Shown in pieces: positions 826 to 5,771 of a DNA stretch of 15,264 bases. A program made the position numbers and the translations under genes. This stretch comes from a virus. The notes under the pieces were generated by a model that made no database searches, was not told where the DNA came from, and saw nothing but the letters and a program-made list of their open reading frames with translations. Within the stretch, counting starts at the first letter, position 1; each line of letters begins with the position of its first letter. The stretch lies in UHGV virus genome UHGV-0370902; one strand, given 5' to 3'.

Positions 826-901
826 TGGTGCTGGTTAACGGACTTGAACCGCTACCCATTCGCTTACAAGGCGACTGCTCTACCATTGGAGCTAAACCAG
901 C
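826..901 (-). tRNA. tRNA, anticodon UGU (Thr) by manual fold
   Basis: 76 nt with 7-bp acceptor stem (GCTGGTT/AACCAGC), D stem GCTC/GAGC, anticodon loop CTTGTAA, T arm AGCGG-TTCAAGT-CCGTT, encoded CCA. Confidence 0.7.
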
Positions 902-906
902 ATATT

Positions 907-981
907 TGGCGGGACAGCGTGGACTCGAACCACGATAAGAAGGTTAACAGCCTTCCGTAATGACCTTTATACGACTGACCC
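907..981 (-). tRNA. Divergent tRNA-like gene, anticodon GUU (Asn-like) by manual fold
   Basis: Perfect anticodon arm GAAGG-CTGTTAA-CCTTC and T arm CGTGG-TTCGAGT-CCACG with CCA end, but the acceptor stem has one U-U mismatch and the D stem is 3 bp; could be a decayed tRNA. Confidence 0.45.
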
Positions 982-3394: not shown

Positions 3395-3418
3395 GTCCTC
3401 TCATATTGAAAATTCAGC

Positions 3419-3443
3419 AATAAAAAACCCAGCCGAAGCTGGG
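3419..3443 (-). terminator. Rho-independent terminator candidate
   Basis: Minus-strand RNA CCCAGC-UUCG-GCUGGG followed by UUUUUUAUU, between the ORF6N gene and the rha gene. Confidence 0.5.
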
Positions 3444-3462
3444 TCGTTGCGTTGGCAATCTG

Positions 3463-4167
3463 TCAGTAGTGATGTAGTGAAGGAGGTAATTCTTTGTTCT
3501 TAAGTCTTACCCATGCAGAAAGATTCGTTGGTCCGTCTGGCTCATTAATATCAACATCTCGTGTGTGATTGATTAAAACGTCTCTCGCCATTCCGATAAC
3601 ATACGAGAACTCATGACCGTAGTCGTGGCATCTGCCGGAATAGTTAGACTGAATTTGTCTTAGCGCCGGATACAGTTCGCGGAATAATGCCTGTGAGCGG
3701 TTGGCATAATCCCACAACCATACCAGACTGTTTGCATCTTTTGCAGAAAGCTCGCTGGTTTTCTTCTCGTGATGACCTGCGCTTTTCGAAGTCTGGCTGA
3801 AATAGCAGTCTTCCAGTTTTTCGAACACGTCCCATGCCTGATCGGTTTCGAGCATCTTCGCGTGACGGGCTGCGCCTCGTTCTGTCCAGAGGATGAGCGA
3901 GCGGGTTTTCGGGGAAATTTGTAACCCTCTTAAAGATGGTTGCAAATTTTGTGAGTAGTTTAAAGCTACCCGCAATTCTTTAAGGTCATTACCAACAACT
4001 TTGAAAAAGTGTTTCCCTTCAACGAAGCGTACTTTGTTCTCATGATGATTCTGGCGAATACGCACCGGCTCAGTGCCGTAAAGCTGCGCCAAAAGTTCAG
4101 TGGTAATAACAGGTATCTGGTTATGGGTGATCGGGGAGAGAGTTTCAACAGCAATTTGAGTTGTCAT
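3463..4167 (-). CDS. ORF6N-domain protein (antirepressor-type N-terminus, unknown C-terminal domain)
   Basis: 234-aa ORF; N-terminal 110 aa resemble the ORF6N/antirepressor N-domain ([11 protein letters not shown]...[10 protein letters not shown]...[16 protein letters not shown]...); C-terminal half unrecognised. Confidence 0.65.
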
Positions 4168-4335
4168 AGTGACACCTCCGGTAGATGTTTCAGAACATCA
4201 CCACCTTCAGGTGCTAATCATCGGGTGGCGAGACGTACAGGGTTAGCACTACCGGATCTACCAACCGGCCAGCCTTTCGGCTGCCCCATACGCCCCACCA
4301 TAATTCAGATGTGCGTGCGCATACGACAATAAAAA

Positions 4336-4352
4336 ACACGCTTGCGGCGTGT
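4336..4352 (-). terminator. Rho-independent terminator candidate
   Basis: Minus-strand RNA ACACGC-CGCAA-GCGUGU followed by UUUUUUAUUG. Confidence 0.4.
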
Positions 4353-4488
4353 GTCTGTCGCGGTAGTTATCCGGGGTGCTAATCCCGACGCCAGATTTTG
4401 CTGGCGTATGAGGAATATAGCCCCGGATATGTGTTGTCGTCAACTACAGGCCTTGAATGCATATAACGATTTTGTTATGTTGATACCT

Positions 4489-4818
4489 ATGAACTACACT
4501 ATCGAATACTACAGTGAAGATGTAAGGCTGGAAGTCGATCGGCTTCCATTGAGTATGCGTGCCCGATACCAACATCTCGTTGAACGTATGAAGATATATG
4601 GCAGCAATCTCGGAGAACCTCACACCAGCGCCTTTGGTGACGGGCTTTTCGAACTCAGAATTAAAGGCAACGATGGGATCGCGCGTGTTTTTTACTGCAC
4701 TCTGACAGGGAAACGCATCATCATGCTGCATAGTTTTGTAAAGAAAACGCAGAAAACACCGCCAGCCGAACGCAAGAAAGCTGAAACCAGAATGAAGGAG
4801 GTTAAGCATGACTGGTAA
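4489..4818 (+). CDS. Type II toxin, RelE/HigB-like (phage Gp49-like killer family)
   Basis: MNYTIEYYSEDVRLEVDRLP...GDGLFELRIKGNDGIARVFYCTLTGKRIIMLHSFVKKTQKTP is typical of this toxin family; alternative start at 4477; the ORF-track 5' extension uses a TTG start and is unlikely. Confidence 0.8.
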   Translation: MNYTIEYYSEDVRLEVDRLPLSMRARYQHLVERMKIYGSNLGEPHTSAFGDGLFELRIKGNDGIARVFYCTLTGKRIIMLHSFVKKTQKTPPAERKKAETRMKEVKHDW

Positions 4819-5116
4819 ACGCACTCTCCCCACCATGACACACGACGAAATGGCAGCCAAATGGATGGAAGACCCGGCTTTTAAAGCAGAATACGACGCT
4901 ATCGCTGACGAATTCGCACTGCTTGATGAAATGCTGGCAGCACGCAAAGAAGCTGGCTTAACTCAGGCTGAAGTTGCCGAGCGAATGGGAACAAAAGCGA
5001 CCGCGATCACCAGAATGGAAAGTAATCTCGCATCAGGTATCAGCGGCCCATCATTTGCCACACTAAAAAAATTCGCCCGCGCTACTGGAAAAAAACTCCA
5101 GATCCGCTTCGTTTAA
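4808..5116 (+). CDS. HigA-like antitoxin, XRE-type HTH
   Basis: 102 aa; HTH segment LTQAEVAERMGTKATAITRME; AGGAGG RBS; start overlaps the toxin 3' end; toxin-first order as in higBA. Confidence 0.8.
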   Translation: MTGKRTLPTMTHDEMAAKWMEDPAFKAEYDAIADEFALLDEMLAARKEAGLTQAEVAERMGTKATAITRMESNLASGISGPSFATLKKFARATGKKLQIRFV

Positions 5117-5157
5117 CCACACCGCGCCGTCATTCTGGCGGCGCACCGGATAAATAG

Positions 5158-5334
5158 TCATTTCCTCGCACGATGTCTTAGCCACCGGATATCCCACAGG
5201 TGAGCCGTGTAGTTGAAGGTTTTTACGTCAGATTCTTTTGGGATTGGCTTGCGTTTATTTCTGGAGCGTTTCGTTGGAAGGTATTTGCAGTTTTCGCAGA
5301 TGATGTCGGTGAAACTTCGTCGCTGTCGTCTCAT
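5158..5334 (-). CDS. ninE: NinE
   Basis: From the internal ATG the ORF reads [58 protein letters not shown], matching lambda NinE; start overlaps ninB stop. Confidence 0.85.
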
Positions 5335-5771
5335 GCCGCCCTGTCTCCCCATCGCGCTTTCCACTCCAGAGCCAGTCGCGCTTCGTCTGACCACTTAACG
5401 CCACGCTCTGTACCGAATGCCTGTATAAGCTCTAATAGCTCCGCAAATTCGCTTACACGCATCCTGCTGGTTGACTGGCCTATTACCACAAAGCCATTCC
5501 CGGCAAGGTTAGGAACAACGTCCTGCTGCTTTAATGCTGCGGTAAACACACACTTCCAGCTTTCTGCATCCAGCCAGCGACCATGCCATTCAACCTGACG
5601 AGAGACGTCACCAAGGCAAGCCCAAAGCTTTCGATTCTGGTCTAAGCTGCGGTTGCGTTCCTGAATGGTTACTACGATTGGTTTGGTTGGGTCTGGAAGA
5701 ATTTGCTGTACTGCGTGAATAGCGTTTTGCTGATGTGCTGGAGATCGAATTTCAAAGGTTAGTTTTTTCAT
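5331..5771 (-). CDS. ninB: NinB (Orf-family recombination mediator)
   Basis: [67 protein letters not shown]... is essentially lambda NinB; GAGGGAAG RBS; the ORF-track start at 5789 is a 6-codon extension. Confidence 0.9.

What the first reader, a model, noticed from the sequence alone, without database searches (positions are those of the whole stretch)
4329..5116. HigB/HigA-like toxin-antitoxin module inserted convergently into the nin region
A Gp49/RelE-family toxin followed by an overlapping XRE-HTH antitoxin lies on the strand opposite to the pR operon, between ninE and the antirepressor cluster. Minus-strand hairpin/U-run structures on both sides (4336-4352, and a GCGCCG/CGGCGC hairpin at 5117-5157) may insulate it. 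Such modules can stabilise the prophage or mediate abortive infection.
Basis: partly seen in the sequence, partly recalled or inferred. Interest (0 to 1): 0.5.

Follow-up and report, generated by a model that had tools for sequence, protein, structure and literature searches.

The report
Prophage HigB/HigA-type toxin-antitoxin cassette
A real but ordinary two-gene toxin-antitoxin unit sits backwards in the late-early region of a lambda-like E. coli prophage, and the "insulating" hairpin next to it is in fact the terminator of a neighbouring small RNA (IsrK) that controls an antirepressor.

Summary
The gene pair is real. The toxin (4489-4818, +) is a Gp49/HigB-type RelE-fold protein: Pfam PF05973 at E 8e-26, and an AF2 model closest to S. 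pneumoniae HigB and M. tuberculosis HigB1. It overlaps by 11 nt an XRE-HTH antitoxin (4808-5116, +). The pair is convergent with the minus-strand pR operon, between ninE and an antirepressor gene. Phages with an empty site show it is an insert of about 0.72 kb. RefSeq already labels identical copies as a RelE/ParE toxin plus an HTH protein, and N15 gp49/gp48 (46% identical toxin) is cited in the literature as a validated TA system. It is therefore a member of a known kind.

I add three things. A 16-bp operator palindrome (4463-4478) lies inside a promoter whose -10 ends 7 nt before the ATG and which has no Shine-Dalgarno sequence. This layout recurs in 81 homologous upstream regions, whereas the antitoxin has a strong SD. 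In enterobacterial prophages this TA clade is almost always placed back-to-back with such an RNA-antirepressor unit, and elsewhere it is not. The right hairpin is the cassette's own 3' end and has no U-run.

The parts
4453..4481 (+). Predicted TA promoter: -35 TTGAAT (4453-4458), 17-nt spacer, -10 TATGTT (4476-4481). The -10 ends 7 nt before the ATG, which implies a leaderless mRNA or one with a leader of about 1 nt.
   Evidence: In the window this is only an 8/12 match to consensus, so the scan did not report it. The call rests on positional conservation in 81 unique homologous upstream regions: TTG at -35 (68, 67 and 62 of 81), a 17-nt spacer, TAttAT at -10 (final T in 80 of 81), and the start codon 7 nt further on. 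This is inferred; the transcription start has not been mapped.
4463..4478 (.). Operator-like palindrome ATAACGATTTTGTTAT (family consensus ATAACATATTTGTTAT). It lies in the spacer and overlaps the -10. It is the predicted binding site of the HTH antitoxin dimer.
   Evidence: This is the only exact ATAAC-N6-GTTAT in the window. TAAC-N6-GTTA occurs 8-14 nt (mostly 10-11) upstream of the start codon in 59 of 67 one-per-species homologue loci, and in all prophage classes, although the surrounding sequence differs.
4489..4818 (+). Toxin gene (109 aa). Gp49/HigB-type member of the RelE/ParE superfamily, with no Shine-Dalgarno sequence.
   Evidence: Pfam PF05973, E 8.3e-26. PDB 6af3 HigB, E 1.5e-5. 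AF2 pLDDT 89.6; Foldseek TM 0.76-0.79 to S. pneumoniae HigB and 0.70 to M. tuberculosis HigB1. 46% identical to N15 gp49. E55, R57, R66, F83, K85 and K89 are invariant.
4795..4801 (+). Strong Shine-Dalgarno sequence AAGGAGG, 6 nt upstream of the antitoxin ATG and inside the toxin's 3' end.
   Evidence: Read directly from the sequence.
4808..5116 (+). Antitoxin gene (102 aa). N-terminal helices (residues 12-49) followed by a C-terminal XRE-type HTH. It overlaps the toxin gene by 11 nt.
   Evidence: HTH_3, E 3.4e-11. Best PDB sequence hit is 6af3 HigA. AF2 pLDDT 84; the HTH part matches HipB, HigA2 and C-proteins, and only 6af3 HigA aligns over 94-100 columns. A homologue lies directly downstream of the toxin in 79 of 80 genome loci.
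5124..5144 (+). 3' hairpin GCGCCGUCA-UUC-UGGCGGCGC, the last conserved element of the cassette. Probably a 3'-end or stabiliser hairpin, or a weak terminator, of the TA mRNA.
   Evidence: The cassette homology with POCJ13 and PhiR5_2 ends exactly here. The plus-strand fold has z -2.5, against -0.2 for the minus strand. There is no U-run.
4331..4443 (-). NOT part of the TA unit. This is the neighbouring isrK sRNA gene (4407-4331) with its terminator (4352-4336 plus T-run), its promoter TTGACG-18-TATATT (4443-4414) and the c4-a1b1 element (4420-4368). It lies back-to-back with the TA promoter.
   Evidence: Rfam RF01394, 80.4 bits; RF03163, 47.2 bits. Promoter and terminator scan. The same unit is present in the TA-less phage PhiR12_1.
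4221..4305 (-). NOT part of the TA unit. C4-type antisense RNA lying between isrK and the antirepressor gene (4167-3463).
   Evidence: Rfam RF01695, 71.8 bits. Antirepressor domains P22_AR_C and ORF6N.

Best explanation
The locus is an autonomous, autoregulated type II toxin-antitoxin cassette of the Gp49/HigB-HigA (Tad-Ata) kind. It is carried as an accessory 'moron' by a lambdoid prophage and sits immediately upstream of the isrK-C4-antirepressor transcription unit, pointing the opposite way.

Proposed mechanism (inferred by homology unless marked otherwise):
1. A sigma-70 promoter (4453-4481) makes a bicistronic mRNA that starts at or next to the toxin ATG. The toxin therefore has no Shine-Dalgarno sequence and is translated poorly. 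The overlapping antitoxin has a strong AAGGAGG and is made in excess.
2. The antitoxin's N-terminal helices hold the toxin. Its C-terminal HTH dimer binds the palindrome ATAAC-N6-GTTAT over the -10 and represses the operon.
3. If the antitoxin is lost, through proteolysis, a block in gene expression by an infecting phage, or loss of the prophage, the RelE-fold toxin enters the ribosomal A site and cuts mRNA. This arrests the cell.

The likely benefit is prophage retention and/or abortive defence against other phages.

What is shown directly: the gene pair, its family and fold, the conserved proposed catalytic residues, the insert boundaries, the conserved promoter/operator layout, and the conserved pairing of the two genes.
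For: Family and fold:
- Both proteins have the same best PDB entry, the HigBA complex 6af3.
- The long C-terminal helix typical of Gp49-type HigB toxins is present: the model has H92-107, and PMC9098466 describes this helix as typical of the group.

Catalytic residues:
- Residues equivalent to S. pneumoniae E66/R68/R73/F90/K92 and M. tuberculosis E66/R68/R77/F93/K95/Q98/K99 are E55/R57/R66/F83/K85/Q88/K89.
- All of these except Q88 are invariant in 30 homologues.
- E55, R57, R66, F83, K85 and K89 were also checked in the prophage copies and are intact in 49 of 50. Q88 was not checked there.

Homology to a TA system cited as validated: 46% identity to N15 gp49. PMC5906591 cites Dziewit 2007 for the TA function of N15 and for the rule that Gp49 TA operons are toxin-first.

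Conserved pairing: an antitoxin homologue lies directly downstream in 79 of 80 species.

Cassette nature:
- The PhiR12_1 site is empty.
- The same core (4427-5144) occurs in Stx phages POCJ13 and 75/02 and in PhiR5_2, at other map positions.
- It is present in only 31 of 5426 complete E. coli genomes, always chromosomal.

Promoter, operator and missing SD. The first 12 nt of the mRNA are unpaired.
Against: - Nothing here tests toxicity, neutralisation, DNA binding or the transcription start.
- The window's own promoter hexamers are weak (8/12).
- Many homologues start with GTG, which is a poor leaderless start. 'Leaderless' may therefore really mean a very short leader without an SD.
- PADLOC has no matching defence system. 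The only hit is a partial match of the toxin to the C-terminus of NsnC, E 8e-10, so an anti-phage role is unsupported by any library.
- The N73 equivalent that matters in M. tuberculosis HigB1 is not conserved in this family.
- Some Gp49-type toxins (M. tuberculosis HigB2 and HigB3) are non-toxic.
Confidence: 0.85

Rival explanations
1. The pair is a functional accessory of the antirepressor switch rather than, or in addition to, a selfish TA unit. In this reading the HTH protein or the TA complex, bound 50-70 bp upstream of the isrK start, modulates the isrK promoter. Alternatively, toxin activity shifts the IsrK/C4 control of antirepressor translation. Either way, antitoxin loss under stress would feed into prophage induction.
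For: Promoter geometry:
- The two promoters are back-to-back, with their -35 hexamers only 4-9 nt apart.
- The isrK start lies 76-83 bp from the toxin ATG in 42 of 50 IMG/VR prophage loci whose toxin is at least 72% identical.
- The other 8 loci still carry a C4-type RNA (C4 or sRNA-Xcc1) upstream on the opposite strand. So does a locus whose toxin is only 53% identical.

The adjacency survives mosaic exchange:
- A 100% identical toxin occurs with a 73-75% identical C4 block, and a 73% identical toxin with an 88-94% identical block.
- The downstream effector differs between loci: P22AR-type Ant, Rha or Ash.
- The prophage backbone and map position differ.
Against: - Most isrK-C4-ant units have no TA pair. 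The flanks are found in 1455 E. coli genomes and the cassette in 31. The empty-site phage keeps its own TTGACG-18-TATATT isrK promoter. The switch therefore works without the pair.
- There is only one operator copy, and it lies outside the isrK core promoter.
- The spacing between the two promoters varies (76, 80 and 82-83 bp), so helical phasing is not kept.
- Homologues at 58-69% identity in 79 other species keep the operator and the pairing but have no C4-type RNA. This was 0 of 36 by Rfam and 0 of 79 by nhmmer.
- N15 gp49/48 is not next to an antirepressor.
- The IMG/VR loci are redundant and related by descent, so the counts overstate independent events.
Confidence: 0.12
2. The locus is a decayed or non-toxic TA remnant: the toxin fold is retained but the activity is lost, and the HTH protein serves only as a generic regulator.
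For: M. tuberculosis HigB2 and HigB3 are Gp49-type proteins that are not toxic (PMC9098466). PHROG 2523, which the toxin matches at E 2.6e-45, is labelled 'unknown function'.
Against: - Both ORFs are full length in 49 of 50 prophage copies.
- The residues missing from the inactive M. tuberculosis paralogues (F93 and K99 equivalents, and the basic C-terminal helix) are present here and invariant: F83, K89, R101 and K106.
- The toxin is 58-69% identical across classes of Proteobacteria and Nitrospirae, which points to strong purifying selection.
Confidence: 0.08
3. The ORFs and hairpins are chance features of an intergenic stretch.
For: None beyond the many spurious ORFs listed in the region.
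Against: Pfam E-values of 8e-26 and 3e-11. More than 4000 toxin homologues. A confident AF2 model.
Confidence: 0

Closest known systems
N15 gp49/gp48, the Tad-Ata-type TA system (founding member of Pfam Gp49/PF05973; Dziewit et al. 2007 as cited in PMC5906591)
   Same: Toxin 46% identical over 83% of its length. Toxin-first operon with an overlapping or abutting XRE-HTH antitoxin. Phage-borne and placed against the direction of the surrounding operon.
   Different: The N15-type loci have a clear Shine-Dalgarno sequence (AGGAGG) ahead of the toxin, lack the ATAAC-N6-GTTAT operator, and are not next to a C4/IsrK-antirepressor unit.
Streptococcus pneumoniae HigBA (PDB 6af3/6af4)
   Same: Best sequence hit in the PDB for both proteins. 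Best structural match for the toxin, TM 0.76-0.79. It is the only PDB antitoxin that aligns along nearly the full length of the antitoxin model. E66/R68/F90/K92 align with E55/R57/F83/K85.
   Different: Only about 20% identity. It is chromosomal in a Gram-positive bacterium. The antitoxin match is weak (E 1e-3; TM about 0.5).
Mycobacterium tuberculosis HigB1 (HigB-TAC, Rv1955; PDB 7nbu/7awk)
   Same: RelE fold with the long basic C-terminal helix. The F-x-K-x-x-Q-K motif has identical spacing (F83..K89 against F93..K99). It has been shown to cut mRNA on the ribosome, which is the mechanism inferred here.
   Different: The TAC system needs a SecB-like chaperone as a third component, and none is encoded here. 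The N73 equivalent is not conserved in this family.
Gifsy-1 isrK-orf45-anrP locus and the P1/P7 immI c4-icd-ant region (the neighbour, not the TA unit)
   Same: Full-length Rfam matches to IsrK, C4 and c4-a1b1, followed by an antirepressor gene. The promoter and terminator are placed as described in PMC4825925.
   Different: That paper does not mention a toxin ('toxin' occurs 0 times in its text). The divergent TA partner seen here is an optional add-on found in a small minority of such loci.

Membership tests
Gp49/HigB-type toxins (Pfam PF05973, RelE/ParE superfamily) | Sequence match to the family profile above the curated threshold | tested here: met
   90.3 bits against a cutoff of 23.9, E 8.3e-26, covering profile positions 3-90 of 90.
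Gp49/HigB-type toxins (Pfam PF05973, RelE/ParE superfamily) | RelE-like fold (beta-sheet flanked by helices) with a long C-terminal helix | tested here: met
   The AF2 model (pLDDT 89.6) has E4-7, H10-17, H21-37, four strands and H92-107. Foldseek gives TM 0.70-0.79 to HigB (6af4, 7nbu), with RelE, YafQ and YoeB next.
Gp49/HigB-type toxins (Pfam PF05973, RelE/ParE superfamily) | Conserved basic and acidic active-site residues (equivalents of E66, R68, R73/R77, F90/F93, K92/K95, K99) | tested here: met
   E55, R57, R66, F83, K85 and K89 are invariant in alignment A4 and in 49 of 50 prophage copies. The N73 equivalent is not conserved.
Gp49/HigB-type toxins (Pfam PF05973, RelE/ParE superfamily) | Ribosome-dependent mRNA cleavage and growth arrest | not testable with these tools
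   Needs expression and cleavage assays.
Type II toxin-antitoxin system (HigBA / Tad-Ata architecture) | Toxin-first bicistronic operon with an adjacent or overlapping XRE-HTH partner, conserved as a pair | tested here: met
   11-nt overlap. A partner lies directly downstream in 79 of 80 one-per-species loci; the exception is cut by a contig end.
Type II toxin-antitoxin system (HigBA / Tad-Ata architecture) | Operator in the operon's own promoter for autoregulation by the antitoxin | tested here: inconclusive
   A conserved 16-bp palindrome overlaps the predicted -10 in 59 of 67 species and in all prophage classes. Binding was not tested.
Type II toxin-antitoxin system (HigBA / Tad-Ata architecture) | The antitoxin binds and neutralises the toxin and is proteolytically labile | not testable with these tools
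   There is only indirect support: N-terminal helices 12-49 precede the HTH, as in 6af3 HigA.
Known anti-phage defence systems (PADLOC-DB v2) | Match of both proteins to the models of a listed system | tested here: not met
   The toxin matches only 51 residues of NsnC (E 8e-10). The antitoxin gives only weak generic HTH hits to capH and RmrA.
   The left hairpin is the IsrK terminator and is present without the insert. The right hairpin has no U-run and carries a C.A mismatch on the minus strand.

The most novel reading that the evidence does not exclude
In enterobacterial prophages this Gp49-HTH clade has become a dedicated partner of the IsrK/C4-controlled antirepressor switch. Its promoter and operator sit 4-9 nt behind the -35 of the isrK promoter. 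The state of the TA system (antitoxin level, operator occupancy, toxin-mediated mRNA cleavage) could therefore tune IsrK/C4 output and antirepressor translation. That would link cellular stress or superinfection to the decision to induce the prophage.
Probability: 0.12. Interest if true: 0.6.

Novelty: new member of a known kind. Interest (0 to 1): 0.3.

Why it matters
The module on its own adds little. It is a routinely annotated RelE/ParE-type pair and a close relative of a TA family that has been characterised experimentally.

Two by-products are more useful.

1. The family-wide layout gives a simple, testable explanation of how a toxin-first operon keeps the antitoxin in excess. The elements are a -35, an operator palindrome, a -10, a start codon 7 nt later with no SD, and a strong SD for the antitoxin.

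2. The clade is persistently placed back-to-back with IsrK/C4-antirepressor units, across different prophage backbones and different effector genes. This could simply be a favoured 'safe harbour' for morons. It could instead hint that some prophage TA pairs talk to the induction circuitry. That would matter for Stx-phage biology, because Stx phages POCJ13 and 75/02 carry the same cassette.

Tried and rejected
Rejected in favour of 4489 because homologues start at MNYT. One sub-class (PhiR5_2 and L053) has ATA at that codon while keeping the upstream ATG, so 4477 cannot be fully excluded for that sub-class.
- A general association of Gp49 toxins with antirepressors through the founding member N15. 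N15 gp49/48 has no antirepressor or C4 RNA nearby.
- A family-wide link between the toxin and C4/sRNA-Xcc1 RNAs. This was 0 of 36 non-enteric loci by Rfam and 0 of 79 by nhmmer.
- A second operator near the isrK core promoter. None was found. One 1-mismatch site at 6606 is within chance expectation.
- The Gifsy-1 STM14_3218-3220 story (PMC9879122) as a possible description of this pair. It is unrelated: an AAA ATPase plus two hypothetical proteins.
- A literature search for a described TA/C4/antirepressor link. Nothing relevant was found.
- A combined C4 plus sRNA-Xcc1 covariance model. The two families align too poorly (A6), so separate nhmmer profiles were used instead.
- Foldseek on the antitoxin. 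It gives only generic XRE-HTH matches (best E 0.018), so it does not discriminate between antitoxin families.

Full report
CONTEXT. The window is a lambdoid prophage segment whose early-right (pR) operon runs on the minus strand.
- cI-like repressor, 10669-11406 (+).
- Cro-like gene, 10608-10363 (-).
- An HTH replication protein.
- A toprim primase/helicase carrying a LAGLIDADG/Hint intein, 8755-5849.
- ninB (5789-5331) and ninE (5394-5158).
- Further down the minus strand: a P22AR/ORF6N antirepressor (4167-3463), a Rha fragment, a KilAC-type Ant, RusA, Q (1826-1203) and two tRNAs.

OBSERVATION. Between ninE and the antirepressor, on the plus strand, lie two overlapping ORFs.
- The first matches Pfam Gp49 (PF05973) at E 8.3e-26.
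- The second matches HTH_3 at E 3.4e-11.
- NCBIfam gives only sub-threshold hits to RelE/ParE-type toxin and to antitoxin or repressor models.
- The two genes overlap by 11 nt.
- An identical locus in E. coli FDAARGOS_943 is annotated by RefSeq as 'type II toxin-antitoxin system RelE/ParE family toxin' plus 'helix-turn-helix domain-containing protein'. PhiR5_2 is annotated HigB/HigA.

WHAT THE PROTEINS ARE.
- The best PDB sequence match for both proteins is the same entry, the S. pneumoniae HigB-HigA complex 6af3 (E 1.5e-5 and 1e-3).
- An AF2 model of the toxin (pLDDT 89.6) has the RelE topology plus a long C-terminal helix.
- The model is closest to S. pneumoniae HigB (TM 0.76-0.79) and M. 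tuberculosis HigB1 (TM 0.70). RelE, YafQ, YoeB and V. cholerae HigB2 follow.
- PMC9098466 describes the long helix as typical of 'Gp49-like toxins' and lists the active-site residues of HigB1 and their S. pneumoniae equivalents.
- By the HMMER alignment and the identical F-x-K-x-x-Q-K spacing, these correspond to E55, R57, R66, F83, K85, Q88 and K89. All but Q88 are invariant in the family alignment.
- E55, R57, R66, F83, K85 and K89 were also checked in the prophage copies and are intact in 49 of 50; one copy is frameshifted.
- The toxin is 46% identical to N15 gp49. According to the literature cited in PMC5906591 (Dziewit 2007), the N15 pair is a validated TA system, and Gp49 operons are always toxin-first.
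- The antitoxin model (pLDDT 84) has two N-terminal helices (12-49) followed by a generic XRE HTH. Only 6af3 HigA aligns along most of it.
- The pairing is conserved. In 79 of 80 one-per-species genome loci an antitoxin homologue follows the toxin directly.

IT IS AN INSERT.
- In phage PhiR12_1 the flanks are contiguous. Window 3401-4429 and 5162-5342 align to a site where about 24 bp replace the roughly 730 bp found here.
- Stx phages POCJ13 and 75/02 share only 4426-5144, at 92% identity. PhiR5_2 shares 3793-5144 at 77%. In both, the cassette lies ahead of ninB rather than after ninE.
- The conserved core runs from GATATGTGTTGTCGTCAAC (4427) to the end of the hairpin at 5144.
- The heptamer CCGGATA occurs at both junctions (4424-4430 and 5148-5154). 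A degenerate copy of the empty-site sequence (CCGGATAAATAGTCAT against CCGAATAAATCATCAC) remains at the right junction. I could not assign an insertion mechanism.
- The cassette is rare. It occurs in 31 of 5426 complete E. coli genomes and is always chromosomal.

HOW IT IS PROBABLY EXPRESSED (inferred). I aligned 81 unique upstream regions on the motif TAAC-N6-GTTA. They came from the window, IMG/VR prophages and one-per-species genomes.
- The motif itself is present in 59 of 67 species loci.
- The alignment gives a fixed layout: TTG at -35, a 17-nt spacer holding the near-palindrome ATAACATATTTGTTAT, TAttAT at -10, then the start codon 7 nt later with no Shine-Dalgarno sequence.
- In the window these elements are TTGAAT (4453-4458), ATAACGATTTTGTTAT (4463-4478), TATGTT (4476-4481) and ATG 4489.
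- The hexamers match consensus at only 8 of 12 positions, so the generic scan missed them.
- The first 12 nt of the mRNA are unpaired.
- The antitoxin has AAGGAGG 6 nt ahead of its ATG.
- My reading is poor, leaderless-type translation of the toxin, efficient translation of the antitoxin, and repression through the palindrome. Many homologues use GTG, which argues for caution about strict leaderlessness.

THE HAIRPINS.
- The left one (4352-4336 plus T-run, minus strand) is the terminator of an IsrK sRNA gene. Rfam RF01394 matches 4407-4331 over its full length at 80.4 bits.
- A C4 antisense RNA lies at 4305-4221 (71.8 bits) and the c4-a1b1 element at 4420-4368.
- The only promoter the scan found, TTGACG-18-TATATT at 4443-4414 on the minus strand, places a start at about 4407, the Rfam 5' end.
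- This is the isrK-orf45-anrP arrangement of Gifsy-1. There, short IsrK and read-through mRNA arise from one promoter, and IsrK activates antirepressor translation (PMC4825925).
- The unit is present, terminator included, in the TA-less PhiR12_1. It is therefore not an insulator of the TA pair.
- The right hairpin (5124-5144) is the last conserved element of the cassette. It has 9 bp including a G.U pair on the plus strand (z -2.5) but a C.A mismatch on the minus strand (z -0.2). It has no U-run on either strand.
- I read it as the 3' end of the TA mRNA, not as a barrier to pR transcription.

AN UNEXPECTED REGULARITY. I searched with profiles built from the Rfam-confirmed RNAs.
- All 50 IMG/VR prophage loci with a toxin at least 72% identical carry a C4-type RNA upstream on the opposite strand.
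- In 42 of them the isrK 5' end is 76-83 bp from the toxin ATG.
- In 5 an sRNA-Xcc1 lies about 330 bp away; 3 of these also show a weak partial isrK-like match at 76 bp.
- The other 3 lie at 550 bp (one locus) and about 1950 bp (two loci). A locus with a 53%-identical toxin has sRNA-Xcc1 at 218 bp.
- The same holds in e14-like E. coli prophages where the downstream gene is Rha or Ash and in Edwardsiella.
- The identities are mosaic. A 100% toxin occurs with a 73-75% C4 block, and a 73% toxin with an 88-94% block.
- The two -35 hexamers are 4-9 nt apart.

Against a functional coupling:
- The isrK unit is common without the pair: 1455 genomes against 31.
- The empty site has its own complete isrK promoter.
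- There is one operator only, and it lies outside the isrK core promoter.
- The spacing is not phase-constant.
- 58-69% identical homologues in 79 other species have the operator and the partner but no such RNA.
- N15 does not show the arrangement.
- The IMG/VR loci are redundant, with about 22 distinct protein pairs.

I therefore treat the linkage as most likely a favoured, inherited landing site upstream of an independent transcription unit that is active in lysogeny. I keep regulatory coupling as a minority hypothesis.

COMPARISON AND VERDICT. The module meets every testable defining feature of a Gp49/HigB-HigA (Tad-Ata) type II TA system. Toxicity, neutralisation and DNA binding remain untested. 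It matches no curated defence system in PADLOC. It is a new member of a known kind and has already been labelled by automatic annotation. Interest is low to moderate. It rests on the conserved SD-less promoter/operator design and on the clade-specific partnership with IsrK/C4-antirepressor units.

Noticed in passing
window 4221-4443 (-): A complete IsrK sRNA, C4 antisense RNA and c4-a1b1 element, with its own promoter (TTGACG-18-TATATT, 4443-4414) and terminator. It lies upstream of the P22AR/ORF6N antirepressor gene (4167-3463), which makes it a Gifsy-1 isrK-orf45-anrP / P1 immI-like unit. A 41-aa minus-strand ORF (4339-4214) matches PHROG 20442 and may be the orf45 equivalent.
   Followed up: yes
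window 5849-8755 (-): The 968-aa toprim primase/helicase carries an intein-like insert: Hom_end Hint at residues 379-424 and LAGLIDADG_3 at 579-634. The insert sits between the Toprim domain and the AAA_25 helicase domain.
   Followed up: partly
window 4424-4430 and 5148-5154: The heptamer CCGGATA flanks the TA cassette as a direct repeat. The right junction also keeps a degenerate copy (CCGGATAAATAGTCAT) of the empty-site sequence. This looks like a target duplication or a microhomology junction, but the mechanism is unknown.
   Followed up: partly
L019-L021, L023, L029, L031 (1582-1769 and 2238-2425); L167 (1275-1462 and 2265-2451); L041: Some prophages carry two tandem isrK-C4 units (or two sRNA-Xcc1 copies) upstream of the same TA pair, 656-990 bp apart.
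   Followed up: no
L167 1660-2661 and L168 1843-2661 (-): The RefSeq CDSs called 'Rha family' and 'ash family' extend across the full IsrK and C4 RNA genes and into the toxin gene. Their N-terminal parts are probably over-extended annotation.
   Followed up: partly
L003 (POCJ13) 1030-1113; L038-L043, L058, L087, L169: In some loci the C4 position is occupied by an RNA that Rfam scores as sRNA-Xcc1 (RF02221), a family described from Xanthomonas integrons. It sits ahead of antirepressor genes in enteric prophages. It may be functionally equivalent to C4, although Rfam does not place it in the C4 clan.
   Followed up: partly
window 14696-14754 (+): A full-length match to the lambda cIII thermoregulator RNA element (RF01804, 88.5 bits).
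   Followed up: no
window 826-901 and 907-981 (-): tRNA-Thr (TGT) and tRNA-Asn (GTT) lie downstream of the Q antiterminator gene.
   Followed up: partly
L169 3190-3495 (+): In E. coli JNEC-KY176 a second gene, annotated 'HigA family addiction module antitoxin', follows the TA pair directly. It could be an orphan antitoxin or an anti-TA element.
   Followed up: no
window 10363-10608 (-): The Cro-like gene scores best against Pfam 'YdaS_toxin' (E 3.6e-18) as well as against P22_Cro and HTH_3. From its position opposite cI it is a Cro-type repressor, so the Pfam name is misleading.
   Followed up: no
L092 584-797 (+): A HEARO RNA (RF02033, 155 bits) lies about 700 bp upstream of a toxin homologue in a Methylococcaceae MAG. 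It is probably an unrelated mobile element.
   Followed up: no
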